Assembly (NCBI GenBank): GCA_034002325.1
Contig: JAVFAQ010000001.1
Span: 1 to 35,070 of the forward strand
DNA from: Flavobacteriales bacterium
Lineage (GTDB): Bacteria; Bacteroidota; Bacteroidia; Flavobacteriales_F; PHOS-HE28
Direction of reading: 5' to 3'
DNA: 35,070 bases
Part shown: positions 14,956 to 25,557 of the stretch, piece by piece
Layout: every line of letters begins with the position of its first letter
Numbering within the stretch: the first letter of the stretch is position 1
Position numbers and translations under genes: made by a program
The notes under the pieces: generated by a model
Told to the model about the DNA's origin: nothing
Database searches by the model: none
The model's input: only the letters and a program-made list of their open reading frames with translations

Positions 14956-16479
14956 CTACTCGTCGAGGTCCTTCCGCAGCACGCCCACCAGGTGGTCGGG
15001 GAAGTAGTGGTCCGCCAGTTCCACGAACTCGTCGCCCCGGGCGAACATGTCCATGCCCACGTCGGAAAAGCGCTCCTTGCCGCAGGCGGCGAGCAGTTCC
15101 AAGGTGGCGTGGAGCGTGTTGCGGTGGTAGTGGTACACCCGCTCGGTCTTGTCGGTCACCACCAGGCCCCGTTGCAGCCCGCGGTCCTGCGTGGCCACCC
15201 CGGCGGGGCAGTCGTTGGTGTTGCAGCGCAGGGCCTGGATGCAGCCCAGGGCGAACATGAAGCCCCGCGCGCTGTTGCACAGGTCGGCGCCCAAGGCGCG
15301 CATCTTCAGGATGTCGGCGGCGGAAATGACCTTGCCGCTGGCGATCACCCGGATGTGCTCCTTCAGGCCGTAGTGGCGCAATGAGGCGTTCACGAACATC
15401 AAGGCGGGCACGATGGGCATGCCCACGGAATCCGCGAACTCCAGCGGGGCCGCACCGGTGCCTCCCTCGGCGCCGTCCACGGTGATGAAATCGGGCATCA
15501 TGCCGGTGGTGCGCATCTTGGCGCAGATATCGGTGAACTCCTCGGCCTTGCCGATGCAGAGCTTGAAGCCCACGGGCTTGCCGCCGGAGAGCTCGCGCAG
15601 GCGCCCCACGAAGCGCAGCAGGCCGGCGGCATCGCTGAAGGCGCTGTGGCCCGGCGGCGAAAGCACCGTGTGCCCCGGCTCGATGTGGCGGATGCGGGCG
15701 ATCTCCGGGGTGTTCTTGCTGGCCGGCAGCACGCCGCCGTGGCCGGGCTTGGCGCCCTGGCTCAGCTTCACCTCGATCATGCGCACCTGCGGATGGGCCG
15801 CGTTCTTGCGGAACACCTCGGGATCGAAGTCGCCGTTGGCATCGCGGCAGCCGAAATAGCCCGTGCCGATCTGCCACACCAGGTCGCCGCCCGGTGCCAG
15901 GTGGTGGTCGCTGATGGCCCCCTCGCCGGTGTTGTGGTAGAAGCCGCCCTTCTTCGCACCGCCATTGAGGGCGAGGATGGCGTTGCGGCTCAGGGCGCCG
16001 AAGCTCATGGCCGAGATGTTCAGCAACGACGCATCGTAGGGCTGCGTGCATTCGGGCCCGCCGATGCGTACCCGGGGCGGTTCCTTGAGCAGGGGCGCCG
16101 GGAACACCGAGTGCCGCAGCCCCTCGTAATCGCCGTGGTACAGGTCCATCAGCGTGCCGAAGGGCACCGTGTCGTTCACGTTCTTGGCCCGGCGGTACAC
16201 CAGCGAGCGTTGCTGCCGGCTGAAGGGGCGGCCGTCGGTGGTGCGCTCGATGAAGTACTGCTGCATCTCCGGGCTGATGAACTCGAAGAAGTAGCGCGCG
16301 TAGCCCAGCACCGGGAAGTTGCGCATGATGGTGTGCCGCACCTGCAGCACGTTGAGGATGCCGATGATCACCAGCGGCACCAGCACCACGTACCACCACA
16401 GCACGATGGGGTGGAAGTAGCCGATCACCCCCACCAGGAGCAGCAGGAAGAAGCTCAGTCCGTAGAAGATGCGCCGCAT
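14956..16479 (-). CDS. FMN-binding glutamate synthase family protein (GltB domain-2-like), membrane anchored
   Basis: N-terminal TM helices, then a GltS FMN-domain-like core (VKLSQGAKPGHGGVLP, GFKLCIGK, DFITVDGAEGGTGAAP, IASGKV). The start at ATG 16479 is supported by a perfect TAAGTTTG box 17 nt upstream, so the 20-codon upstream extension is unlikely. Confidence 0.85.
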   Translation of the reverse strand: MRRIFYGLSFFLLLLVGVIGYFHPIVLWWYVVLVPLVIIGILNVLQVRHTIMRNFPVLGYARYFFEFISPEMQQYFIERTTDGRPFSRQQRSLVYRRAKNVNDTVPFGTLMDLYHGDYEGLRHSVFPAPLLKEPPRVRIGGPECTQPYDASLLNISAMSFGALSRNAILALNGGAKKGGFYHNTGEGAISDHHLAPGGDLVWQIGTGYFGCRDANGDFDPEVFRKNAAHPQVRMIEVKLSQGAKPGHGGVLPASKNTPEIARIRHIEPGHTVLSPPGHSAFSDAAGLLRFVGRLRELSGGKPVGFKLCIGKAEEFTDICAKMRTTGMMPDFITVDGAEGGTGAAPLEFADSVGMPIVPALMFVNASLRHYGLKEHIRVIASGKVISAADILKMRALGADLCNSARGFMFALGCIQALRCNTNDCPAGVATQDRGLQRGLVVTDKTERVYHYHRNTLHATLELLAACGKERFSDVGMDMFARGDEFVELADHYFPDHLVGVLRKDLDE

Positions 16480-16496
16480 GTTGCCGTATCGGGCCG

Positions 16497-16504
16497 CAAA
16501 CTTA
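16497..16504 (-). promoter_or_regulatory. -7 promoter box TAAGTTTG for the GltB-like gene
   Basis: Perfect TAnnTTTG on the minus strand, 17 nt upstream of ATG 16479. Confidence 0.5.
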
Positions 16505-16575
16505 GCCCCGAACGCACGGTCCCCACCGCGTGCGCCCATTGGCCGGGACGCCTATCTTTCCGCCTCACGCCGCCC

Positions 16576-19332
16576 ATGACCCCGCAGGACCAACGCCACT
16601 TCAACGCCGCCCGGCTGCGCTCGCACACGTGGGACCGCCTGAAGCTGGCGGTGACCGCCCTGGCGGCGCGGCCGGCCGGTGCTCCGGGAGCGGACCATGG
16701 GCAGGCCGCGGAGGCGCTGGGGCAGTTGCTGGTGATCGAGCGCTACTGGGCCTACCCGGGGATCGAGGCCGTGCGGCGGATGCAGGAGCTGCTGCAACAG
16801 GGCGGTGCGGCCGAGCTGGAGCAGGCCGTGCTCCACGTGGTGCGCCACCTGGCCAGCGGCGTGTTCCGCAGCGACGCGGCCATCACCGACGAAGGGGCCG
16901 ACCACGCCGAGCGCGAGGCCGAGACCGAGCCGGAGCGCACCCGGCAGCATTACTTCGAGGTGCTCTTCGTGGATGACAGCGGCGAGCGCGAGCAGCAGCG
17001 CATCCGCGAGCAACTGGCCGAGGCCCGCGGGCGCGACGACCGCTTCACCTACGGCGTGGTGGTGGTGCCCACGGCGCAGGACGCGCTGATCGCCCTGCTC
17101 TTCAACCACAACATACAGGCCTGCGTGGTGCGCTACGGCATCCCCTTCCCCAGCCCGCAGGCCAAGGGCTTCCTCGCCGGCTACGTCCGCGCCATCGAGC
17201 AGGTGGACCTCACCGCGCGCACCAAGGCCGAAATGGGGCCGCAGCTCGCCCGCATCATGCGCTGGTTCAGGCCCGAGGTGGACCGCTACTACGTGACGGA
17301 CACCCCGGTGATCGACCTGGACGACCATACGCTCAAGCACTTCCGCCGCATCTTCTACCGGCAGGAGGACCTGGAGGAGCTGCACCTCACCATCCTGCGC
17401 GGCATCACCGAGAAGTACGAGACGCCCTTCTTCACCGCCCTCACCGAATACAGCCGCAAGCCGGTGGGCGTGTTCCATGCCATGCCCCTGTCGCGCGGCA
17501 ACAGCGTGTTCCGCAGCCGGTGGATCCAGGACTTCGGCGCGTTCTACGGCCGCAACCTCTTCCTGGCCGAGACCAGCAGCACCACCGGCGGGCTCGATTC
17601 CCTGCTGCAGCCCACCGGCCCGCTGAAGAAGGCCCAGGAGTTGGCGGCCCGGGCCTTCGGCGCGCAGCACACCTACTTCGCCACCAACGGCACCAGCAGC
17701 AGCAACAAGATCGTGCTGCAGGCCCTGGTGGAGCCCGGCGACCTGGTGCTGATCGACCGCGACTGCCACAAGAGCCACCACTACGGCATGGCCCTGAGCG
17801 GTGCGCATCCCGTGTACCTGGACAGCTACCCGCTGCCCAAGTTCAGCATGTACGGCGCCGTGCCGCTGGCCCACATCCGGGAGAAATTGATCGAGCTCAA
17901 GCGCGCCGGCCGGCTGGACAAGGTGAAGATGCTGCTGCTCACCAACAGCACCTTCGACGGCGTGGTGTACAACGTGCAGCGCGTGATGGAGCAGGTGCTG
18001 GCGATCAAGCCGGACATGATCTTCCTGTGGGACGAGGCCTGGTACGCCTTCGCGGGCTTCAGCTACATCTTCAAGCAGCGCACGGCCATGTTCAGCGCCG
18101 CCCGCCTGCACCGCCGCTACCACAGCCCGGCCTACCGCGCCGAGCACGCGGCCCACGTCGCGGCGCTGCCGCCCGGCGAAGAGCCCCTGCTGCCCGACCC
18201 CGACCGCGTGAAGGTGCGCGTGTACGCCACCCAGAGCACGCACAAGACGCTCACCTCCTTCCGCCAGGGCAGCATGATCCACATCTGGGACGAGGAGTTC
18301 AAGCGCCTGAGCGAGGAGGCCTTCCACGAGGCGTACATGACCCACACCAGCACATCGCCCAATTACCAGGTGCTGGCCAGCCTCGATGTGGGCCGCCGCC
18401 AGGTGGAGTTCGAGGGCTACGAACTGGTGGAGAAGGCCATCGAGCTGGGCATGATGCTGCGCCACAAGGTGTACCAGCACCCGCTGCTGCTGAAGTACTT
18501 CGACATCGTCACCGTGGCCGACCTGATCCCGGCCGAGTACCGCCCATCGGGCCTGAAGGAGTACTATTCCAAGGACGTGGGCTGGAACCGCATCGAGGAC
18601 GCGTGGGCGCACGACGAGTTCGTGGTAGACCCCACCAAGGTGAACCTGTACGTGGGCAAGACCGGGGTGGACGGCGATACGTTCAAGAACCGGTACCTGA
18701 TGGACCAGCATCACATCCAGGTCAACAAGACGAGCCGCAACTCGGTGCTGTTCATGACCAACATCGGCACCACGCGCGGCAGCATGGCCTACCTGCTGCG
18801 GGTGCTGCTGCGGATCGCGGAGGACCTGGAGGCGCGGGTGCAGGCCATGAGCCGCCCCGAGCGCGAGCTGCACATCCGGCGCATCCGCTCGCTCACCAAG
18901 TTCGTGCCCCCGCTGCCGGATTTCAGCCGCTTCCACGACAGCTTCCGCGCGGTGCCCACCGTGCCGGGCGGCAACCTGCGCGAGGCGTACTTCCTGGCCT
19001 ACAAGGAGGAGAACTGCGTGTTCATCCCCCTGACCGAGTGCCATGCCGCGCTGGCCGCCGGCCGCGCACTGGTATCGGCCAACTTCGTGATCCCCTACCC
19101 GCCCGGCTTCCCCGTGCTGGTGCCCGGGCAGGTGATCAGCGGCGAGATCCTGGACTTCCTGCTGGCCATCGACGTGAAGGAGATCCACGGCTACCGCGCC
19201 GACATGGGCCTGCGCGTGTTCACCGAGGGCGCCCTGGCCCGCAAACGCACCGGCACGGCCATGGGCGGGGCGCGCGCCAGTGCGATGGGCGCGGCCAACG
19301 GAACAGGTGCGAAGAAGAAGCGCAAGGCGTGA
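16576..19332 (+). CDS. Large Orn/Lys/Arg decarboxylase (fold-I PLP, AdiA/CadA/SpeC-like) with N-terminal extension
   Basis: CheY-like wing region (YFEVLFVDD ... VVVVPTAQDALIALL). Major domain (FHAMPLSRGNS, ATNGTSSSNKIV, PLP-lysine context ATQSTHKTL). C-terminal domain (VIPYPPGFPVLVPG). Start at ATG 16576, since upstream the ORF runs antisense through the neighbouring gene. 918 aa. Confidence 0.9.
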   Translation: MTPQDQRHFNAARLRSHTWDRLKLAVTALAARPAGAPGADHGQAAEALGQLLVIERYWAYPGIEAVRRMQELLQQGGAAELEQAVLHVVRHLASGVFRSDAAITDEGADHAEREAETEPERTRQHYFEVLFVDDSGEREQQRIREQLAEARGRDDRFTYGVVVVPTAQDALIALLFNHNIQACVVRYGIPFPSPQAKGFLAGYVRAIEQVDLTARTKAEMGPQLARIMRWFRPEVDRYYVTDTPVIDLDDHTLKHFRRIFYRQEDLEELHLTILRGITEKYETPFFTALTEYSRKPVGVFHAMPLSRGNSVFRSRWIQDFGAFYGRNLFLAETSSTTGGLDSLLQPTGPLKKAQELAARAFGAQHTYFATNGTSSSNKIVLQALVEPGDLVLIDRDCHKSHHYGMALSGAHPVYLDSYPLPKFSMYGAVPLAHIREKLIELKRAGRLDKVKMLLLTNSTFDGVVYNVQRVMEQVLAIKPDMIFLWDEAWYAFAGFSYIFKQRTAMFSAARLHRRYHSPAYRAEHAAHVAALPPGEEPLLPDPDRVKVRVYATQSTHKTLTSFRQGSMIHIWDEEFKRLSEEAFHEAYMTHTSTSPNYQVLASLDVGRRQVEFEGYELVEKAIELGMMLRHKVYQHPLLLKYFDIVTVADLIPAEYRPSGLKEYYSKDVGWNRIEDAWAHDEFVVDPTKVNLYVGKTGVDGDTFKNRYLMDQHHIQVNKTSRNSVLFMTNIGTTRGSMAYLLRVLLRIAEDLEARVQAMSRPERELHIRRIRSLTKFVPPLPDFSRFHDSFRAVPTVPGGNLREAYFLAYKEENCVFIPLTECHAALAAGRALVSANFVIPYPPGFPVLVPGQVISGEILDFLLAIDVKEIHGYRADMGLRVFTEGALARKRTGTAMGGARASAMGAANGTGAKKKRKA

Positions 19333-19427
19333 GCGCCGATACGAACGGGGACCACCCCACGAGTGGATGAAGCCCGTGAGGTCCTGGTATTTCAAGACCG
19401 TGCGCCGATAGGGGTCCGAGGAAAAGG

Positions 19428-19458
19428 AAGGGGCCGCCTCCTGTTGGGGCAGCCCCTT
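19428..19458. terminator. Possible bidirectional hairpin between the convergent decarboxylase and hppD genes
   Basis: AAGGGGC ... GCCCCTT 7-bp stem with a 17-nt loop. No clear U-tract. Confidence 0.3.
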
Positions 19459-19481
19459 CGTATGCCACGCACGGCGCGGGA

Positions 19482-20621
19482 CTACAACGTCCCCCGGCTC
19501 GCCTGCTCGCGTTCGATCGCCTCGAACAGCGCCTTGAAGTTGCCCTTCCCGAAGCTCTTCGCGCCCTTGCGCTGGATGATCTCGATGAAGAGCGTGGGGC
19601 GGTCCTGCAGCGGCTTGGTGAAGAGCTGCAAGAGGTAGCCCTCGTCGTCGCGGTCCACCAGGATGCCCAGTTCGGCGAGCGGTGCCAGGTCTTCCTCGAT
19701 GGGCCCCACGCGGTCCAGCAGGCCCTCGTAGTAGGTCGAAGGCACTTTGAGGAACTCCACGCCGCGCGCCATGAGCTCGCGCACCGTCTTCACGATGTCG
19801 TCCGTGGCGATCGCGATGTGCTGCACGCCGGGGCCGTTGTAGAAGTCCAGGTACTCCTCCACCTGGCTCTTCTTCTTGCCCTCGGCCGGCTCGTTGATCG
19901 GGAACTTGATGCGGCCGTTGCCGTTGCTCATCACCTTGCTCATCAAGGCGCTGTACTCGGTGCTGATGTCCTTGTCGTCGAAGCCCAGCACGTTGGCGAA
20001 GCCCATCACCTCCTCGTAGAACTTCACCCAGGGGTCCATTTCGTTCCAGCCCACGTTGGCCACCATGTGGTCCACGTACTTCAGGCCGGTGGTGGTGGGG
20101 TTGTAGGCGCTCTTCCAAGGCTTGTAGCCCGGCAGGAAGGTGCCCTTGTAGTTCTTGCGCTCCACGAACACATGCACCGTGTCGCCGTACAGCTTGATGC
20201 CGCTCTTGACCACTTCGCCGTCGGCGTCCTTCTCCACGCGGGGCTCGAAGTAGGGCACGGCGCCACGCTTGGTGGTCTCTTCGAAGGCCTTGCGGGCGTC
20301 GTCCACCCACAGGGCGATCACCTTCACGCCGTCGCCGTGCAGGCGCAGGTGGTCGTTGATCTCGTGGTCCTTCGTCAGCGGGGTGGTGAGCACCAGGCGG
20401 ATCTTGTCCTGCACCACCACGTAGCTGGTGCGGTCCTTCACGCCCGTCTCCAGGCCCGCGTAGGCGAGGCTCTGGAAGCCGAAGGCCGTCTTGTAGAAAT
20501 GGGCGGCCTGCTTGGCGTTGCCCACGTAGAGTTCGATGTGGTCGGTGCCCAAGAGGGGAAGGAAGTCCGCCGCTTCGGGCACCACTTTCTTCAGGTCGGG
20601 GGTTGCGCTTTCGATGGCCAT
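19482..20621 (-). CDS. hppD: 4-hydroxyphenylpyruvate dioxygenase
   Basis: 379 aa, two VOC-fold halves, HPPD-like throughout (HIELYVGNAKQAAHFY, GVQHIAIATDDI, LFEAIEREQ). Confidence 0.93.
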   Translation of the reverse strand: MAIESATPDLKKVVPEAADFLPLLGTDHIELYVGNAKQAAHFYKTAFGFQSLAYAGLETGVKDRTSYVVVQDKIRLVLTTPLTKDHEINDHLRLHGDGVKVIALWVDDARKAFEETTKRGAVPYFEPRVEKDADGEVVKSGIKLYGDTVHVFVERKNYKGTFLPGYKPWKSAYNPTTTGLKYVDHMVANVGWNEMDPWVKFYEEVMGFANVLGFDDKDISTEYSALMSKVMSNGNGRIKFPINEPAEGKKKSQVEEYLDFYNGPGVQHIAIATDDIVKTVRELMARGVEFLKVPSTYYEGLLDRVGPIEEDLAPLAELGILVDRDDEGYLLQLFTKPLQDRPTLFIEIIQRKGAKSFGKGNFKALFEAIEREQASRGTL

Positions 20622-20886
20622 GGTCGTTGGGGGGATCAGATGATTCGTCGATCAGATGATCAGGGACTCGACCGGACTTCCGGTCCGGGTCGGAGCTGCA
20701 AAGATCGGTCATTTGTCCCGGGGGCGGATGACAGCGGTCAGCCCTGCCCGGAACGGCTCAGGGGCTTGCCACGCATGCCCATCGCGCAAGGCCCCGGCTT
20801 TCGGCCTGCAAACCCGCCGCCCGGTGGACGCGGGTGTAGCCATCCGGTCCACCCGTGTCCATCCGGGCACAAAGCGGCAACCCGGA

Positions 20887-21296
20887 TCAGCCTTTCACCA
20901 GCGGAACACCGTATGCCTCGAAATGCGGATCGGCCGTGAGCAAGTGCATGCCCTCATGCTTCGCTTGGGCGATCAGCATGTGCTTCATCCCGCCACAGCG
21001 GGGCGGTCAAAGGGATCGCGGTGGTGGAGGGGGAGCGAAGCAACCGCCAGGAAGTGTTCTTCTTTGATGGGAGTTGTCAGGAAGCCGGCGTCACCGATCA
21101 ACTTGAATGTCGTGGCCAGGCCCTGGTCGAGCCTCAGCTTCCCGATGGATGACTTGATCGCGATTTCCCAGAACGATACATGACTGACGAAATGCGCTTC
21201 AGGTGATCGTTCGATCTGGTCGCGGACCGAGGGCGCAAGCCTCCTGTCGAGGGATTGGAACCAGAGCAGCACATGGGTGTCGAGCAACACGCTCAT
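20887..21296 (-). pseudogene. vapC: PIN-domain (VapC-type) toxin gene, frameshifted near the 3' end
   Basis: The 103-aa ORF (21296->20985) ends ...HHRDPFDRPAVAG*. The canonical continuation MLIAQAKHEGMHLLTADPHFEAYGVPLVKG* is encoded in another frame at 20979->20887. Removing the 23 nt at 20980-21002 restores FDR-MLIAQA in one frame. Confidence 0.7.
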
Positions 21297-21502
21297 TCCA
21301 TGTATTCCTTGAAGTCGTCCAGCGGGGCATCAAAATCGTCCGCGATCCAGATCTTGCCCTTCATCAGGCCGGCGATGCGCTTCTTCGGTTCTTGCTCAGG
21401 TATAGGTTGGCCAGCGAGGAGGGCCTCGATGTATGCGAGTACCTTCTTGCGCAAGCCCTCCGGCAAGGAATTGAACTTCACGAAAAGGTCGGCACTGGAC
21501 AT
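21293..21502 (-). CDS. DUF2281-type antitoxin partner of the PIN toxin
   Basis: 69 aa. The C-terminal KGKIWIADDFDAPLDDFKEYME motif is typical of DUF2281 antitoxins. ATGA stop/start overlap with the PIN gene. Confidence 0.7.
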   Translation of the reverse strand: MSSADLFVKFNSLPEGLRKKVLAYIEALLAGQPIPEQEPKKRIAGLMKGKIWIADDFDAPLDDFKEYME

Positions 21503-21536
21503 AGTGCGAAGTTAGGTCATCCGGGTGCGGTCCGCT

Positions 21537-21833
21537 TCAGCCGCGCGCATAGATCAGTTGCTTGTCGCGGTCCACATAAGGCTTCACGTGCGGGCTCAGG
21601 CCCTTGGTGGTCACCAGGTCCACGGAGCGGGAGAGCAGGGCTTCCAGGTCCAGGCCCATTTGGATGAAGTGCAGGCCGATGGGCTGGCTGTGGTCCAGTT
21701 CCACCAGGATGTCCACGTTGCTACGTTCATCCGCCATGCCGCGCGCGAACGAACCGAACAGATAGGCCTGCTTCACGGGTTGGCCCGCGAAGTAGGTCCT
21801 CAGTTGGGCCAGTGCCTGCTCGTTCAACTGCAT
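21537..21833 (-). CDS. Minimal nucleotidyltransferase (MntA-like), no HepT/DUF86 partner present
   Basis: 98 aa. The LFGSFARG...NVDILVEL pattern is the GSxxRG...DxD pol-beta NTase signature of MNT antitoxins. Confidence 0.75.
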   Translation of the reverse strand: MQLNEQALAQLRTYFAGQPVKQAYLFGSFARGMADERSNVDILVELDHSQPIGLHFIQMGLDLEALLSRSVDLVTTKGLSPHVKPYVDRDKQLIYARG

Positions 21834-21896
21834 GCGTCTTCGTCCCGATCTGTCGGGAGAGCGAAGGTAGCGGAGAGGTGTCTGGCGGGCTATCCG

Positions 21897-22223
21897 AAGT
21901 AGCCCGCACCCTGAGGCCTTGCGAAGGGGAGGACTACTGCGGAAAGCCCGACCCGAGGCTTTGCGAGGGCACCCGCCTTCGGCAGGCAGGCGCCCACACC
22001 TCGGCCGCGCTCGGCGTGGTACCTGCCCGTCATGCCATTTTCCGATCCTCTGATCCTCTAATTATCTGATCGCCCTATTCCACCCACGAGTTCCAGTACT
22101 TCCCATCATCGATCTTCAGCGCCTCCTCGGTCACCATCAGCGGCTTGAAGGTATCCACCATCACGGCGCGCTCGTCGGTCTTCGTTTTGCCGATGCTGCG
22201 TTCCATGGCGCCGGGCTGCGGGC
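21897..22223. repeat. Direct repeat copy 1 (REP-rich flank + orphan hmgA 3' end)
   Basis: Matches 24220-24548 in the same orientation. I count 7 substitutions and 2 one-base indels. A further 12-nt match (atgtgcagggtg, 22227-22238 vs 24566-24577) follows a short gap. Confidence 0.9.
22076..22223 (-). pseudogene. hmgA: Orphan 3' fragment of homogentisate 1,2-dioxygenase (last ~49 codons)
   Basis: Encodes PGAMERSIGKTKTDERAVMVDTFKPLMVTEEALKIDDGKYWNSWVE*, nearly identical to the C-terminus of the intact gene at 24400-25557. No start codon and no upstream hmgA sequence. Confidence 0.85.
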
Positions 22224-22258
22224 AGCATGTGCAGGGTGTGCGAGTGAGGCAGATCCAC

Positions 22259-22266
22259 TAATTTTG
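22259..22266 (+). promoter_or_regulatory. -7 promoter box TAATTTTG for the wHTH-NTase pair, followed by tandem CGTGAAT x2 (22272-22285)
   Basis: Perfect TAnnTTTG 20 nt upstream of ATG 22287. The 7-mer tandem repeat lies between the box and the ATG. Confidence 0.5.
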
Positions 22267-22286
22267 CGATTCGTGAATCGTGAATC

Positions 22287-22799
22287 ATGGATACGCACAA
22301 GGGCATGCGCCCACAGGACGTAGCGGTGTTGCTGAAGATCGTGGCCTTGGGCAACGACGACTGGCGGGGCATCGACCTGGCGCATGCGCTGCGCCTGAGC
22401 CCGGCCGAGGTGAGCAACTCGCTGAAGCGTTCCGCCATGGCCGGCCTGGTGGACGGCACCAAGCGCCGCGTGTCGAGAGCCGCGCTGCTGGAGTTCCTCA
22501 AGCACGGCCTGCCGTACGTGTTCCCCGTGCGGCCCGGTGGGTTGGTGCGTGGCGTGCCGACCGCGCACGCGGCCGCGCCCCTTCGCACGAAATTCCTGAC
22601 CGCCGATGCCTACGTGTGGCCCTACGCCAAGGGCGACCAGCAGGGGCAGGCCATTGTGCCACTGTACCCCGGTGCCGTTGCTGCCGCACTCGACGACCCC
22701 AAGCTGCACGAACTGCTGGCGTTGGCCGATGCCCTGCGCACCGGTCGCGCCCGCGAACGCGCCGAGGCCGGGAAAGAACTGGCCAAGCGCCTGAAGTGA
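22287..22799 (+). CDS. Winged-helix DNA-binding protein, putative AbiEi-like antitoxin/regulator
   Basis: 170 aa. N-terminal wHTH-like segment (QDVAVLLKIVALG ... IDLAHALRLSPAEVSNSLKRSAMAGLV). The stop overlaps the next start (TGATG). Confidence 0.6.
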   Translation: MDTHKGMRPQDVAVLLKIVALGNDDWRGIDLAHALRLSPAEVSNSLKRSAMAGLVDGTKRRVSRAALLEFLKHGLPYVFPVRPGGLVRGVPTAHAAAPLRTKFLTADAYVWPYAKGDQQGQAIVPLYPGAVAAALDDPKLHELLALADALRTGRARERAEAGKELAKRLK

Positions 22800-23485
22800 T
22801 GCGCGACGCGGTGAATATCCAGGCCGTGCAGATCGTGGCCGATGGCTTGCGCGACCTGCGCGATCAGGTGGTCTTCGTGGGCGGCGCCGTGATCAGCCTC
22901 TATGCGGACGACCCGGGTGCCGATACGCCGCGCCCCACATCGGACATCGATCTCGTGATCGAAGTGGCAGGCTATTCGGCCTACGCAAAATTGGAGGAGC
23001 GCCTCGCGCAACTCGGCTTCCGCCACACACCGGAAGAGCCGGTCAACTGCCGCTACCGCTTCCACGGGGTCACGGTGGACATCATGCCTACCGATGTGCC
23101 CGCGCTGATGCCCACCAACCGCTGGTACCTGCCGGGCATGCGGCATGTTGTGCGCACAACCCTGCCCGACGGCAGCGCGCTCGCGGTGCTCACCGTGCCC
23201 TACTTCCTCGGCACCAAGTTCGAGGCACACAAGGACCGCGGCCGCGACCTGCGCACCAGCAAGGACTTCGAGGACATCGTCTTCATCCTTGATGCACGCT
23301 TGCGATTGGAAGAGGAAGTGGCCACCGCTCCGGAAGAGATACGCGACTACCTCCAGCGTGCGGCCCAAGCCTTGTTGAAGAATCCCGCAACGCGCGAAGC
23401 CATCGAAGGGCACCTTTCGCCGCACATCGCCACGGAGCGGGCGGCGGTGCTATTGGAACGATTGCGGGCGATGGCGGGGGAGTGA
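22799..23485 (+). CDS. Nucleotidyltransferase, AbiEii/AbiGii-like putative toxin
   Basis: 228 aa. FVGGAVISLY-x13-SDIDLVIE (G-G/S ... DxD pol-beta NTase core). The downstream FLGTKFEAHKDRG...SKDFEDIVFIL resembles the conserved Lys/Asp motif of AbiEii proteins. Translationally coupled to the wHTH gene. Confidence 0.6.
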   Translation: MRDAVNIQAVQIVADGLRDLRDQVVFVGGAVISLYADDPGADTPRPTSDIDLVIEVAGYSAYAKLEERLAQLGFRHTPEEPVNCRYRFHGVTVDIMPTDVPALMPTNRWYLPGMRHVVRTTLPDGSALAVLTVPYFLGTKFEAHKDRGRDLRTSKDFEDIVFILDARLRLEEEVATAPEEIRDYLQRAAQALLKNPATREAIEGHLSPHIATERAAVLLERLRAMAGE

Positions 23486-23610
23486 TGCCTCTTCGGGCCG
23501 CAGGCTTGCCTGCCGGAGGCAGGGGCGTCGTCCTCCCTGTGCAAGGCCGGAAGCACGACAGGTCTTGCGGAGGGGGAAGTGCAGGTCAATAGCTACGCCG
23601 GTGCGGGCGA

Positions 23611-24183
23611 TCATGGCAGCCGCTTACGCACCATTTCGTAGACCTCGTGGTCGTCATCTGCTATACCGGCTCGCGATGGGACCAGTAAGAGTCCTTCTCC
23701 ATCCGTCCAGTACAGTTGGAGTTCCTTCCCCATGAAAGTGTCTCCTTGGGCAAAGAGTGTGTCAATCGAGTTGTTGCGGGCAAGCATCAGAGTTGTACCA
23801 ACGCTGTCGTTGCTCAGAAAGAACTCGCCCTTGTCCGTTCGGTCATGCACGGTATCCGCGTACTTCTCGGTCCAAATGAACACCTTGGAGCTTTTCAGCT
23901 CAAGCTGGATGTGTCGGTCCAAGGATTCCGCACCGTACCAGCAGGTATCAGGTCTCCGATTCATCCAGAGCAGAGAGTCGACCCAGATCCCGGTGATGTC
24001 CTCGACCGTGGTTTCGCGTCCATCACCCTTAAGGTCGCATTGTACCTTGTTCCGCATGACGTAACGAAGCGACAATTGGGCATTGGTTGAATCTCTTGAT
24101 CGCTCGCCCTTGAGCGATGGTGATTCGCCGCACCCCGCAATAACAGAGGCAATCGCAAAAGCCCAGAGCAATGGCTTATTCAT
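23611..24183 (-). CDS. Lipoprotein of unknown function (compositionally atypical)
   Basis: Lipobox signal MNKPLLWAFAIASVIAGC at the internal ATG 24183. The 47 upstream codons of the listed ORF run into the repeat. G+C is visibly lower than in neighbouring genes. No family recognised. Confidence 0.65.
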   Translation of the reverse strand: MNKPLLWAFAIASVIAGCGESPSLKGERSRDSTNAQLSLRYVMRNKVQCDLKGDGRETTVEDITGIWVDSLLWMNRRPDTCWYGAESLDRHIQLELKSSKVFIWTEKYADTVHDRTDKGEFFLSNDSVGTTLMLARNNSIDTLFAQGDTFMGKELQLYWTDGEGLLLVPSRAGIADDDHEVYEMVRKRLP

Positions 24184-24219
24184 GTCACCAATGCATGGCT
24201 CCGCGTGAGGGATAGGAGC

Positions 24220-24548
24220 AAGTAGCCCGCACCCTGAGACCTTGCGAAGGGGAGGACTACTGCGGATAGCCCGACTCCGAGGCTTTGCGAGGGGCACCCG
24301 CCTTCGGCAGGCAGGCGCCCACACCTCGGCCGCGCTCGGCGTGGTGCCTGCCCGTCATGCCATTTTCCGACCCTCTGATCCTCTAATTATCTGATCGCCC
24401 TATTCCACCCACGAGTTCCAGTACTTCCCGTCGTCGATCTTCAGCGCCTCCTCGGTCACCATCAGCGGCTTGAAGGTATCCACCATCACGGCGAGCTCGT
24501 CGGTCTTCGTTTTGCCGATGCTGCGTTCCATGGCGCCGGGCTGCGGGC
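24220..24548. repeat. Direct repeat copy 2 (REP-rich flank + 3' end of the intact hmgA)
   Basis: See copy 1 at 21897-22223. Confidence 0.9.
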
Positions 24549-25557
24549 CGTGCGGGATGCCGGCGATGTGCAGGGTGATGTCGCCCTGGTCGATGTCGTT
24601 GCGGCTCATGAAATCGCCGTCCACGTAGTAGAGCACTTCGTCGCTGTCGATGTTGCTGTGGTTGTACGGTGCGGGGATGGCCTGCGGGTGGTAGTCGTAG
24701 AGGCGCGGGCAGAAGCTGCACACCACGAAGGCATCGGTCTCGAAGGTCTGGTGTACGGGCGGCGGCTGGTGTACGCGACCGGTGATCGGCTCGAAGTCGC
24801 GGATGTTGAAGGCGTACGGGTAGTTGTAGCCGTCCCAGCCCACCACGTCGAAGGGGTGCGTGGCGTAGATCAGCTCGTGCAGCACGCCCTGCTTCTTCAC
24901 CAGCATGCGGAAATCGCCTTTTTCATCGTGCGTCTCCAGGTCCTTCGGGCGGCGGATGTCGCGCTCGCAGAAGGGGCTGTGCTCCAGCAGTTGGCCGAAC
25001 CAGTTGCGGTAGCGCTTGGGCGTGTACACGGGGCGGTGGCTCTCCACGATGAAGTGGCGGTTCTCGGCACCGTCGAACTCCATGGTGTAGATCATGCCGC
25101 GTGGCACCAGCAGGTAGTCGCCGTAGCCGAACTCCAGGGTGCCCAGCAGGGTGCGCAGGCGGCCGGTGCCCTGGTGGATGAAGATCATCTCATCGCAGTC
25201 GGCGTTCTTGTAGAAGTAGTCCACGCTTTTGGCGGTGGGCGCGGAGAGGATGATCTGCACGTCGCTGTTGACCAGGATCGGCTTGCGGCTTTCGAGGTGA
25301 TCGGCCACCGGCGCCACTTTGAAGCCGTGCAGGCGCATGGCGCGCATGTTCTTCTCGATCGCGATCTTGGGGGTGAGGTCGGTGCTGCCCACGATCTTCT
25401 TCACCTGCGTGGGGCGATGCACGTGGTACAGCAGGGAGCTCATGCCGTCGAAGCCGACGGTGCCGAAGAGCTGCTCGTAGTAGTGCCTGCCTTCCGGGCT
25501 TTGGTGGATGGTGTGCCGCTTGTGCGGGATGTTGCCGAGGGTGTGGTAGATGGGCAT
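24400..25557 (-). CDS. hmgA: Homogentisate 1,2-dioxygenase
   Basis: 385 aa, HGD-like throughout (MPIYHTLGNIPHKRHT, LLYHVHRPTQV, GDYLLVPRGMIY, HIAGIPHGPQPG). Confidence 0.93.
   Translation of the reverse strand: MPIYHTLGNIPHKRHTIHQSPEGRHYYEQLFGTVGFDGMSSLLYHVHRPTQVKKIVGSTDLTPKIAIEKNMRAMRLHGFKVAPVADHLESRKPILVNSDVQIILSAPTAKSVDYFYKNADCDEMIFIHQGTGRLRTLLGTLEFGYGDYLLVPRGMIYTMEFDGAENRHFIVESHRPVYTPKRYRNWFGQLLEHSPFCERDIRRPKDLETHDEKGDFRMLVKKQGVLHELIYATHPFDVVGWDGYNYPYAFNIRDFEPITGRVHQPPPVHQTFETDAFVVCSFCPRLYDYHPQAIPAPYNHSNIDSDEVLYYVDGDFMSRNDIDQGDITLHIAGIPHGPQPGAMERSIGKTKTDELAVMVDTFKPLMVTEEALKIDDGKYWNSWVE

What the first reader, a model, noticed from the sequence alone, without database searches (positions are those of the whole stretch)
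20622..24399. The hmgA-hppD tyrosine-catabolism pair is split by a 3.8-kb islet made only of toxin-antitoxin / nucleotidyltransferase-type genes
hppD (19482-20621) and hmgA (24400-25557) are on the same strand and encode consecutive pathway steps that are commonly adjacent. Here they are separated by an MntA-like NTase, a DUF2281 antitoxin, a frameshifted PIN toxin, an hmgA fragment, a wHTH+NTase pair and an orphan lipoprotein. REP-like hairpin clusters sit at every junction (20690-20886, 21884-22075, 23486-23610, 24220-24399). G+C dips in parts of the islet. This looks like a small defence/addiction-module hot spot that has been hit more than once. The combination of modules, rather than any single gene, is the best candidate in this window for an undescribed system.
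Basis: partly seen in the sequence, partly recalled or inferred. Interest (0 to 1): 0.65.

Follow-up and report, generated by a model that had tools for sequence, protein, structure and literature searches.

The report
Toxin-antitoxin hot spot splitting hmgA-hppD
Two neighbouring tyrosine-breakdown genes of an uncultured Flavobacteriales bacterium are separated by a fast-changing patch of selfish toxin-antitoxin modules, most of them already broken, which is a new example of a known kind of genomic hot spot and not a new system.

Summary
hppD and hmgA flank a PIN gene broken by a 23-nt insertion, a DUF2281/VapB antitoxin, an MntA-type nucleotidyltransferase (NTase), a 43-codon hmgA fragment, a wHTH+NTase pair and a lipoprotein. 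A 329-nt direct repeat (hmgA 3' end plus downstream DNA, about 97% identical) brackets the wHTH/NTase/lipoprotein block. A 12-codon HepT stump follows MntA.

In 62 of 80 Bacteroidota relatives hppD lies 33-700 bp downstream of hmgA, and none carries an islet gene. Four closer relatives and one strain variant fill the same interval with overlapping but reshuffled cargo: an intact HepT-MntA, an intact PIN, a RES-domain gene with a 340-aa neighbour, a Pif1 helicase, an unknown 330-aa gene, and lipoprotein homologues.

The wHTH+NTase pair is PADLOC candidate PDC-M21. It occurs as a strict two-gene unit in about 40 other loci, most of them in unrelated contexts, and on 110 plasmids. Its NTase is AbiEii/MenT-like.

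So this is a core-gene-flanked toxin-antitoxin hot spot holding one live module and two decayed ones. The modules assort independently, so the combination is not one system. Interest is modest.

The parts
19482..20621 (-). hppD (4-hydroxyphenylpyruvate dioxygenase), a core gene forming one border of the hot spot
   Evidence: 379 aa with Glyoxalase/HPPD_N Pfam domains. It is 84-88% identical to the hppD of L001, L002 and L082.
20622..20886 (.). Non-coding spacer J1, carrying a TCTGATC-N9-TCTGATC pair (20634-20656) just upstream of the hppD start codon
   Evidence: No ORF has homologues. Only the 28 nt next to hppD match L082. Fold z-score is -2.1.
20887..21296 (-). VapC-type PIN toxin pseudogene, broken by a 23-nt insertion at 20981-21003
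   Evidence: PF01850 scores 31 bits on the N-terminal 103 aa. The C-terminal ...MLIAQAKHEGMHLLTADPHF... lies in another frame. The intact 128-aa orthologue in L088 lacks the 23 nt.
21293..21502 (-). DUF2281 / VapB-family antitoxin, intact (69 aa)
   Evidence: PF10047 at 3.8e-16. NCBIfam NF050009 TA_VapB scores 81 bits against a cut-off of 60. It is 75% identical to the L088 copy.
21512..21550 (-). Remnant of the HepT toxin gene (12 codons then a stop: MRAAEADRTRMT*)
   Evidence: Translation. It aligns with the start of the intact 116-aa HepT of L134/L136, and homology stops at about 21528.
21537..21833 (-). MntA-type minimal nucleotidyltransferase (98 aa), an antitoxin left without its toxin
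   Evidence: Pfam Polbeta and NTP_transf_2. NCBIfam MntA scores 47.7 bits, below the cut-off of 60. PADLOC PDC-S09 at 8e-21. It is 97% identical to the MntA that precedes an intact HepT in L134.
21897..22225 (.). Direct-repeat copy 1: conserved hmgA-downstream sequence plus the last ~150 nt of hmgA (dead 43-codon fragment at 22075-22206)
   Evidence: About 97% identical to 24220-24550. An independent contig, L135, spans it at 99.7%.
22226..22286 (+). Junction between the hmgA fragment and the promoter region of the wHTH gene
   Evidence: Homology to the hppD-wHTH intergenic region of L088 and L082 starts at about 22239. The same junction is present in L134 and L136.
22287..22799 (+). PDC-M21A: 170-aa winged-helix protein, the predicted antitoxin and repressor of the pair
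   Evidence: PADLOC PDLC04515 at 4e-42. No Pfam family reaches threshold; family members give weak MarR and DtxR wHTH hits. The model has pLDDT 89, and only its N-terminal wHTH resembles anything in the PDB.
22799..23485 (+). PDC-M21B: 228-aa AbiEii/MenT-type nucleotidyltransferase, the predicted toxin, intact
   Evidence: PADLOC PDLC04516 at 6e-56. PF08843 AbiEii scores 40 bits against a cut-off of 22.5. Invariant residues are GG...RPTxDxD...D. The model has pLDDT 90, and its best PDB match is MenT1 (8an5/8an4) at E 7e-6 and TM 0.5-0.6.
23486..23610 (.). Spacer J3 between the convergent NTase and lipoprotein genes
   Evidence: It has no counterpart in L082, L088 or L138. Fold z-score is -0.6.
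23611..24183 (-). Lipoprotein of unknown function (190 aa, lipobox IAGC), low G+C
   Evidence: No Pfam, NCBIfam or PADLOC hit. Only 11 homologues were found in 5.8 billion proteins. A 76-78% homologue also lies downstream of hmgA in L125-L127. GC3 is 0.63.
24220..24550 (.). Direct-repeat copy 2, which forms the true 3' end of hmgA plus its downstream sequence
   Evidence: It is orthologous to the hmgA-downstream DNA of L082, L088 and L125.
24400..25557 (-). hmgA (homogentisate 1,2-dioxygenase), intact, a core gene forming the other border
   Evidence: 385 aa, the same length and C-terminus as in 80 relatives.

Best explanation
The 3.8-kb interval is a lineage-specific variable region (a hot spot) between two conserved core genes, hmgA and hppD, in a clade of high-G+C uncultured Flavobacteriales. 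It holds three unrelated toxin-antitoxin (TA) modules at different stages of decay, plus one unrelated lipoprotein gene. It is not one system.

(i) One module is intact: the wHTH + AbiEii/MenT-type NTase pair, PADLOC candidate PDC-M21.
- Inferred from MenT and AbiE work: the NTase adds nucleotides to tRNA 3' ends and stops translation.
- Inferred: the upstream wHTH protein represses the operon and keeps the NTase off, possibly by inducing auto-phosphorylation of the invariant Thr47, which aligns with MenT1 T39.
- The likely outcome is plasmid-type addiction and/or abortive infection.

(ii) A HepT-MntA type VII module has lost its toxin. Only 12 codons of HepT remain, while MntA is intact.

(iii) A VapB(DUF2281)-VapC(PIN) type II module replaced HepT. 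Its PIN gene is now broken by a 23-nt insertion, while VapB is intact.

The present gene order arose by recombination that duplicated 329 nt (the last ~150 nt of hmgA plus ~177 nt downstream), so hmgA stayed intact. The mechanism is inferred to be one of the following:
- homology-anchored illegitimate recombination with DNA from a sister strain carrying another allele of the interval;
- Campbell-type integration of a circle;
- a tandem duplication followed by losses.

No element-encoded recombinase is involved.
For: Shown:
- Adjacency of hmgA and hppD is the rule, and the islet genes are absent from all 80 relatives.
- The flanks hold housekeeping genes, with no integrase or transposase among the ten flanking ORFs scanned.
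- Variants of the same interval:
  - L082: hmgA, 340-aa gene, RES, MntA (frameshifted), HepT stump, [NTase<-wHTH], hppD.
  - L088: hmgA, Pif1, MntA, DUF2281, DUF2281, intact PIN, [NTase<-wHTH], hppD.
  - L138: hmgA, 330-aa gene, [NTase<-wHTH], hppD.
  - L125: hmgA, 149-aa gene, lipoprotein homologue, 181-aa gene, and onward.
  - L134/L136 (wHTH protein 100% identical to the window's): hmgA 3' end, MntA, intact HepT, NTase cut at codon 44, wHTH, then the same hmgA-fragment junction.
- The HepT stump and its breakpoint are shared with L088.
- PDC-M21 matches at 4e-42 and 6e-56.
- The pair is conserved as an adjacent unit in about 40 loci at 33-92% identity; those below 80% identity carry no homologue of the other islet genes or of hmgA/hppD.
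- Homologues of the NTase lie on 110 plasmids and on no phage.
- The NTase fold matches MenT1, and the motif GG...RPTxDxD is invariant.
- Independent contigs from other sequencing runs reproduce the window's junctions at 99.7-100%.

From the literature:
- MenT toxins extend tRNA acceptor stems, and antitoxins induce their auto-phosphorylation (PMC10435456, PMC7450476, PMC11375011).
- Hot spots flanked by core genes, some with no identifiable mode of mobilisation, are known (PMC10250203, PMC10121019).
Against: - No function was tested. PDC-M21 has no experimental record: no paper in the searched library mentions it.
- The one PDC-S09 representative tested in E. coli did not protect against T4, T5 or T7.
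- The wHTH partner is not an AbiEi: it has no AbiEi Pfam hit, and 6y8q was not retrieved. The antitoxin mechanism is therefore extrapolated.
- MntA and PDC-M21 co-occur in the window, L082, L088 and L134, which could mean linkage rather than shared ancestry of the locus.
- The recombination route cannot be resolved from the sequences in hand.
- The relatives are MAGs or short contigs, so frameshifts such as hmgA in L082 may be assembly errors.
Confidence: 0.75

Rival explanations
1. The six genes form one composite, undescribed defence or addiction system in which the orphan NTase, VapB, PIN and the wHTH+NTase pair cooperate.
For: MntA-type NTase and PDC-M21 are found together in the window, L082, L088/L089 and L134. 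All the genes belong to TA-type families.
Against: - All co-occurrences are at the same orthologous locus in close relatives (84-88% nt identity), so they reflect common descent.
- Order and orientation differ between variants, and cargo is swapped.
- PDC-M21 stands alone in L085, L091-L123 and L138.
- HepT and PIN are dead in the window, and MntA is frameshifted in L082.
Confidence: 0.05
2. The 2.3-kb block (wHTH, NTase, lipoprotein) is a small integrative mobile element that targets the 3' end of hmgA. The 329-nt repeats would be its attL and attR, and a recombinase encoded elsewhere would mobilise it.
For: Direct repeats bracket the block and restore an intact target gene, as in islands that insert into gene 3' ends. 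The lipoprotein gene has lower G+C. The pair also occurs on plasmids.
Against: - There is no integrase, transposase or relaxase in the islet or among the ten flanking ORFs scanned.
- 329 nt is far longer than usual att cores.
- In L082, L088 and L138 the same pair sits in the same interval next to hppD, without repeats.
- The lipoprotein homologue lies downstream of hmgA in L125 without the pair, so the block is not one travelling unit.
Confidence: 0.1
3. The arrangement is an assembly artefact: a chimeric MAG contig mis-joined at the repeated hmgA 3' sequence.
For: The repeat is long enough to confuse short-read assemblers. Contigs L081, L132-L137 all end in or near repeats.
Against: - Independent contigs from separate sequencing runs span each novel junction.
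- L135 runs from spacer J2 through the hmgA fragment into wHTH and the NTase gene (21887-23098, 99.7%).
- L132 and L133 run from the hmgA fragment through wHTH, the NTase and the lipoprotein gene into repeat copy 2 (22194-24321, 99.95-100%).
- The two repeat copies differ at 9 positions.
Confidence: 0.03
4. The interval is an integron-like or other site-specific cassette array. The junction hairpins or the TCTGATC-N9-TCTGATC pairs would serve as recombination sites.
For: - Cargo is TA-rich and cassette-like, with structured spacers.
- TCTGATC pairs sit at both ends of the islet and at the duplicate. They also flank the single inserted ORF in L001.
Against: - No intI-like or other recombinase gene was found in the islet or in the ten flanking ORFs scanned with Pfam; the rest of the window was not scanned.
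- The spacers share no attC-like family.
- Genes lie in both orientations.
- The motif pair also occurs at an unrelated locus (L131).
- Breakpoints such as NTase codon 44 in L134 and HepT codon ~10 lie inside genes, not at motifs.
Confidence: 0.07

Closest known systems
Core-gene-flanked defence/TA hot spots (for example cDHS1 and cDHS2 of Pseudomonas aeruginosa, PMC10250203; E. coli hotspot #37, PMC10121019)
   Same: Conserved core genes border a short interval whose cargo differs between close relatives. The cargo is rich in TA and defence genes, and no mobilisation genes are visible.
   Different: It is much smaller (0.04-4 kb). It lies inside a two-gene catabolic pair. It is seen only in a narrow clade of uncultured high-G+C Flavobacteriales. 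Most toxins here are decayed. One rearrangement left a 329-nt duplication of a border gene's 3' end.
AbiE (AbiEi/AbiEii) type IV TA and abortive-infection system, and MenAT of Mycobacterium tuberculosis
   Same: It is a bicistronic operon with a DNA-binding wHTH protein upstream. The toxin is a DUF1814/PF08843 NTase with the GG...DxD core. The toxin fold matches MenT1, and the Thr aligned with MenT1's phospho-acceptor is invariant.
   Different: The upstream protein is only 170 aa. It matches no AbiEi family and no solved AbiEi or MenA structure. The NTase is shorter (228 aa) than the roughly 270-300 aa I recall for AbiEii (from memory, not checked here). Nothing has been tested.
PADLOC candidate PDC-M21 (and PDC-S09)
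   Same: Both PDC-M21 HMMs match over their full length and the two genes are adjacent. The orphan NTase matches PDC-S09.
   Different: PDC entries are unvalidated guilt-by-embedding candidates. Here the PDC-S09 hit is demonstrably a leftover MntA antitoxin, not a stand-alone system.
HepT-MntA type VII TA
   Same: The MntA-type minimal NTase is 97% identical to one that precedes an intact HepT with the RHRLVH motif in strain variant L134/L136. MntA and HepT overlap there, as is typical.
   Different: In the window HepT is reduced to 12 codons. The MntA score is below NCBIfam's equivalog cut-off.
VapBC type II TA with a DUF2281 antitoxin
   Same: A DUF2281/VapB gene overlaps the start of a PIN gene by 4 nt, and the orthologous pair in L088 is intact.
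   Different: The PIN gene carries a 23-nt insertion that puts the segment with the last conserved acidic residue out of frame.

Membership tests
PADLOC PDC-M21 (candidate two-gene defence system) | Both component HMMs (M21A, M21B) match | tested here: met
   PDLC04515 matches at 4.2e-42 (residues 30-169) and PDLC04516 at 6.2e-56 (residues 8-229).
PADLOC PDC-M21 (candidate two-gene defence system) | The two genes are adjacent and co-oriented | tested here: met
   Stop and start codons overlap by 1 nt at 22797-22801. The same adjacency holds in about 40 other loci.
PADLOC PDC-M21 (candidate two-gene defence system) | Protects against phage | not testable with these tools
   No paper in the library mentions PDC-M21.
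AbiE / MenAT (DUF1814 NTase toxin systems) | Toxin belongs to PF08843 (AbiEii/DUF1814) | tested here: met
   40.3 bits against a cut-off of 22.5, E 4.6e-10. NCBI names its homologues 'AbiEii/AbiGii toxin family'.
AbiE / MenAT (DUF1814 NTase toxin systems) | NTase catalytic core (G[GS]...DxD plus a third Asp) is conserved | tested here: met
   G28, G29, R45, P46, T47, D49, D51 and D94 are invariant in 22 homologues. The core aligns with the MenT1 core.
AbiE / MenAT (DUF1814 NTase toxin systems) | Toxin fold resembles solved MenT or AbiEii structures | tested here: met
   Foldseek finds 8an5_B at E 7.2e-6, probability 1.00, TM 0.51/0.61, from a model with pLDDT 89.8.
AbiE / MenAT (DUF1814 NTase toxin systems) | The partner is an AbiEi-family (COG5340) antitoxin | tested here: not met
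   No AbiEi Pfam family is hit by the protein or by its 24 homologues. The fold search returns only generic wHTH regulators, and 6y8q is not retrieved.
AbiE / MenAT (DUF1814 NTase toxin systems) | The toxin arrests growth by nucleotidylating tRNA, and the antitoxin neutralises it | not testable with these tools
   Inferred from PMC10435456, PMC7450476 and PMC11375011.
HepT-MntA type VII TA | MntA minimal NTase | tested here: inconclusive
   Pfam Polbeta and NTP_transf_2 are met. NCBIfam MntA scores 47.7 bits, below the cut-off of 60. The protein is 97% identical to the MntA paired with HepT in L134.
HepT-MntA type VII TA | An adjacent HEPN toxin HepT with the Rx4-6H motif | tested here: not met
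   Only 12 codons remain in the window. No tblastn hit to HepT was found in the window. An intact 116-aa HepT (PF01934 at 3.4e-21) is present in L134/L136.
VapBC type II TA | VapB-family antitoxin | tested here: met
   NF050009 scores 81 bits against a cut-off of 60, and PF10047 matches at 3.8e-16.
VapBC type II TA | An intact PIN-domain toxin with all conserved acidic residues in one frame | tested here: not met
   A 23-nt insertion at 20981-21003 shifts the frame. The ...LLTAD... segment is out of frame.
Integrative genomic island / site-specific mobile element | Flanking direct repeats that include the target gene's 3' end | tested here: met
   21897-22225 against 24220-24550, about 97% identical.
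Integrative genomic island / site-specific mobile element | An element-encoded integrase or recombinase | tested here: not met
   No such ORF lies between or beside the repeats.
Integron cassette array | An intI gene and attC sites between cassettes | tested here: not met
   No integrase was found in the islet or its scanned flanks. The spacers share no common structured family.
Core-gene-flanked defence/TA hot spot | Conserved flanking core genes with variable cargo among close relatives | tested here: met
   Six or more different fillings of the hmgA-hppD interval were found.

The most novel reading that the evidence does not exclude
The paired TCTGATC-N9-TCTGATC motifs may be recombination sites of an unlinked, still unidentified recombinase. 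They sit just after the hmgA stop (and at its duplicate), just before the hppD start, and on both sides of the single inserted ORF in relative L001. If so, this clade of Flavobacteriales would load and shuffle small TA/defence cassettes at such sites through a cassette-capture mechanism distinct from integrons. A second, more modest reading is that the 170-aa PDC-M21A protein is a new class of antitoxin for MenT/AbiEii-type NTases.
Probability: 0.08. Interest if true: 0.7.

Novelty: new member of a known kind. Interest (0 to 1): 0.3.

Why it matters
The locus gives a compact, datable picture of how TA modules turn over at a chromosomal hot spot that has no mobility genes.
- Toxins die first (HepT cut to 12 codons, PIN frameshifted, the NTase truncated in a sister strain), while antitoxins persist.
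- Cassettes are swapped at breakpoints inside genes.
- A border gene is kept intact by a 329-nt duplication.

It also shows that a PADLOC 'PDC-S09' call can be a stranded MntA antitoxin, which is a caution for defence-system censuses.

It marks PDC-M21 as a widespread, untested MenT-like NTase module with a non-AbiEi partner that is worth testing.

Finally, the islet separates two consecutive steps of tyrosine catabolism. This could affect their co-expression and homogentisate (pyomelanin) accumulation.

Tried and rejected
- Rfam scan of the whole window: no family reached its gathering score.
- Sigma-70 promoter and intrinsic-terminator scan of the islet: nothing above chance. Bacteroidota promoters are not covered by that tool.
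- Search for a dispersed REP family: short-word BLAST of every junction against the window and motif searches found only the duplication. One 25-nt match lies in L082.
- Exact-sequence look-up of hmgA found nothing. The hppD look-up gave only a 2.2-kb contig identical to the window.
- PDB sequence searches with single proteins found nothing useful. Profile searches gave only weak hits: MenT1 at E 0.0024, and generic wHTH proteins.
- No homologue of the NTase was found in 50,697 phage records.
- The lipoprotein and the variable 330-aa, 340-aa, 149-aa, 181-aa and 175-aa ORFs of relatives have no Pfam or PADLOC match.
- I could not decide between homology-anchored illegitimate recombination, circle integration and tandem duplication with loss. 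The few differences between the two repeat copies do not assign them to different relatives.
- The integron and integrative-element readings were considered and set aside, for lack of any recombinase and of shared sites.

Full report
**1. What is in the sequence**

- hppD lies at 19482-20621(-) and hmgA at 24400-25557(-).
- A PIN gene lies between them. Its N-terminal 103 codons (20985-21296) end just after HHRDPFDR. Its C-terminal part (...MLIAQAKHEGMHLLTADPHFEAYGVPLVKG*) continues in another frame down to 20887.
- A DUF2281 gene lies at 21293-21502. It passes NCBIfam's VapB equivalog cut-off (81 bits against 60).
- A 98-aa minimal nucleotidyltransferase (NTase) lies at 21537-21833. It hits Pfam Polbeta and NTP_transf_2. 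It scores 47.7 bits on NCBIfam MntA, below the cut-off of 60. It matches PADLOC PDC-S09 at 8e-21.
- A 43-codon copy of the hmgA C-terminus lies at 22075-22206.
- A 170-aa winged-helix protein (22287-22799, +) is followed by a 228-aa NTase (22799-23485, +). Their stop and start codons overlap by 1 nt.
- A 190-aa lipoprotein gene (23611-24183, -) has no family match.

G+C drops to 0.54-0.58 over the PIN/DUF2281 genes and the lipoprotein gene. GC3 is 0.63-0.86 in islet genes against 0.93-0.95 in hmgA and hppD.

**2.

- Positions 21897-22225 and 24220-24550 are about 97% identical, with 7 substitutions and two 1-nt indels.
- The repeat consists of the last ~150 nt of hmgA plus ~177 nt of downstream DNA.
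- It brackets the block made of the wHTH gene, the NTase gene and the lipoprotein gene.

The 'REP-like' description is only partly right.
- The four junctions do not form a repeat family, and nothing like them occurs elsewhere in the 35-kb window.
- Their folding energies are only weakly better than shuffles, or no better (z -2.1, -2.8, -0.6, -0.3).
- Part of the hmgA-downstream sequence is conserved at the same place in relatives, so it is old local sequence.

Right after the MntA stop lies MRAAEADRTRMT* (21512-21550), the first codons of a HepT toxin gene.

**3. Is the hmgA-hppD split unusual?**

Yes.
- A scan of one genome per species returned 80 Bacteroidota loci whose hmgA is 70-83% identical.
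- In 62 of them hppD follows hmgA within 33-700 bp. In 5 it lies directly upstream. In 2 the gap exceeds 2 kb. In 11 hppD is not in the fetched stretch.
- None of the 80 carries a homologue of any of the six islet genes.
- The larger gaps hold unrelated cargo: a hypothetical gene plus an IS110-type transposase in L003, a large secreted protein in L032, a small secreted protein in L001, and a pentapeptide-repeat-like ORF in L004.
- Upstream of hmgA the window is collinear with its nearest relatives. The ten flanking ORFs scanned are housekeeping genes or have no family match, with no integrase or transposase among them.

**4. Closer relatives show a churning hot spot**

Homologues of the islet proteins led to closer genomes with 84-88% nucleotide identity. 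Reading from hmgA to hppD, the interval holds:
- L082 (GCA_041391865.1): hmgA, a 340-aa gene, a RES-domain gene, MntA (frameshifted), a HepT stump, [NTase<-wHTH], hppD.
- L088/L089: hmgA, a Pif1/RecD-like helicase, MntA, DUF2281, DUF2281, an intact 128-aa PIN, [NTase<-wHTH], hppD.
- L138-L143: hmgA, an unknown 330-aa gene, [NTase<-wHTH], hppD.
- L125-L127: hmgA, a 149-aa gene, a 76-78% homologue of the lipoprotein, a 181-aa gene, then further genes, with no hppD nearby.

Contigs whose wHTH protein is 100% identical to the window's fall into two strain-level forms.
- L132, L133, L135 and L137 reproduce the window's junctions at 99.7-100%. This rules out a mis-assembly.
- L134 and L136 carry: hmgA 3' end, MntA (97% identical), an intact 116-aa HepT (PF01934 at 3e-21, motif RHRLVH), the NTase cut off at codon 44, wHTH, and the same wHTH-upstream/hmgA-fragment junction as the window.

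Three conclusions follow.
- HepT-MntA is old at this locus.
- In the window and in L088, HepT was replaced at nearly the same breakpoint by DUF2281-PIN cassettes.
- In the window the PIN gene was then broken by a 23-nt insertion at 20981-21003, which the intact L088 orthologue lacks.

**5. The one intact module**

- The wHTH protein and the NTase match PADLOC's candidate system PDC-M21 (M21A at 4e-42, M21B at 6e-56).
- The pair is adjacent and co-oriented in every one of about 40 loci recovered, at 33-92% identity. Loci below 80% identity carry no homologue of hmgA, hppD, MntA, PIN or the lipoprotein.
- Homologues at about 40% identity lie on 110 plasmids of Proteobacteria, Hymenobacter and Deinococcus. 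None lies on a phage.
- The NTase belongs to Pfam AbiEii/DUF1814 (40 bits against a cut-off of 22.5).
- G28, G29, R45, P46, T47, D49, D51 and D94 are invariant in 22 homologues.
- A confident model (pLDDT 89.8) finds M. tuberculosis MenT1 as its best PDB match (8an5/8an4, E 7e-6, probability 1.0, TM 0.5-0.6).
- In the profile alignment, the invariant Thr47 of RPTxDID lines up with the Thr of MenT1's RFTRDVD. I take this Thr to be the T39 auto-phosphorylation site described in PMC11375011. My residue count gives T38, so the numbering is unconfirmed.
- The wHTH protein has a confident model (pLDDT 89). Only its N-terminal wHTH resembles anything solved. It hits no AbiEi family, and AbiEi (6y8q) is not retrieved.

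**6. How it most likely works**

Shown:
- The interval is a hot spot flanked by core genes, and its cargo differs among close relatives and even among strains.
- The modules assort independently.
- Two of the three toxins in the window are inactivated, while all three antitoxin-type genes are intact.

Inferred:
- PDC-M21 works like AbiE/MenAT. The NTase would nucleotidylate tRNA 3' ends and arrest translation (PMC7450476, PMC10435456).
- The wHTH protein would repress the operon and keep the toxin off, possibly by inducing Thr47 auto-phosphorylation (PMC11375011).
- This would give addiction and perhaps abortive infection.
- MntA and VapB are leftovers of dead modules. They may persist as anti-addiction genes.

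The gene order of the window differs from that of L082, L088 and L138, where PDC-M21 lies next to hppD. In the window it lies next to hmgA, between the two repeat copies. This requires a rearrangement that joined the wHTH promoter region to an internal hmgA site at about 22224-22239. Three routes fit:
- homology-anchored illegitimate recombination with DNA from a strain carrying another allele of the interval;
- single-crossover integration of a circle;
- a tandem duplication followed by losses.

I cannot discriminate between them. No recombinase is encoded in or near the islet.

**7. Comparison with what is known**

- The architecture matches core-gene-flanked defence hot spots, such as cDHS1/cDHS2 in Pseudomonas aeruginosa and hotspot #37 in E. 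coli. Some of these have no identifiable mode of mobilisation (PMC10250203, PMC10121019).
- PDC entries are unvalidated guilt-by-embedding candidates (PMC12988326).
- The one PDC-S09 representative tested gave no protection in E. coli (bioRxiv 10.1101/2024.09.26.614923).
- PDC-M21 appears in no paper of the searched library.

**8. Verdict**

The 'hot spot hit more than once' reading is well supported.
- The 'combination as an undescribed system' reading is not supported.
- The finding is a new member of a known kind. It is useful as a clear example of TA turnover and as a pointer to an untested MenT-like module.
- It is not surprising to a specialist. Interest is 0.3.

Noticed in passing
window 20634-20656(-), 22049-22071(+), 24374-24396(+); L001 11219-11241 and 11796-11818; L003 11162-11184; L131 761-783: Six of the eight TCTGATC heptamers in the 35-kb window lie in three TCTGATC-N9-TCTGATC pairs. 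One is just upstream of the hppD start, one just after the hmgA stop, and one at the hmgA duplicate. In L001 the same pair flanks the single ORF inserted between hmgA and hppD. It also occurs at an unrelated locus (L131). Its function is unknown: it could be an operator, a promoter element or a recombination site.
   Followed up: partly
L082 11885-13038 (GCA_041391865.1, JAWKNH010000012.1): hmgA matches in two different frames (aa 1-154 and aa 152-385), and no gene was called there. This is either a frameshifted hmgA next to an intact hppD, which would favour homogentisate/pyomelanin accumulation, or a MAG assembly error.
   Followed up: no
L144 (P. aeruginosa plasmid pHN39-SIM, NZ_KU254577.1, 33962-36127): In plasmid homologues of the PDC-M21 pair (about 40% identity), the MarR-like gene and the NTase gene are followed by a PP2C phosphatase gene. 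This fits phospho-regulation of MenT/AbiEii-type NTases.
   Followed up: no
L134 602-757 and L136 597-752: In a strain whose wHTH protein is identical to the window's, the NTase toxin is cut at codon 44 and fused next to an intact HepT-MntA. This is the reverse of the window, where the NTase is intact and HepT is dead.
   Followed up: partly
window 15646-19482 versus L082 1-6147: Synteny with the closest relatives also breaks immediately downstream of hppD. The window has an Orn/Lys/Arg decarboxylase cluster there, while L082 has DUF6855, a mechanosensitive channel and an iron permease. hppD therefore sits at a larger rearrangement boundary.
   Followed up: no
L124 (CXWK01020061.1) 2-171: A metagenome contig carries the wHTH C-terminus (90% identical) and only the first 20 codons of the NTase before similarity ends. 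This is another probable truncation of the toxin.
   Followed up: no
L125 5160-5254 and 5757-5851: In L125 the 149-aa gene downstream of hmgA is itself flanked by two copies of the hmgA-downstream REP-like sequence. This suggests that local duplication of this sequence accompanies insertions in more than one lineage.
   Followed up: partly
window 20981-21003: The 23-nt insertion that breaks the PIN gene (CCCCGCTGTGGCGGGATGAAGCA on the coding strand) contains a small palindrome (CCCGC...GCGGG). Its origin is unknown.
   Followed up: no
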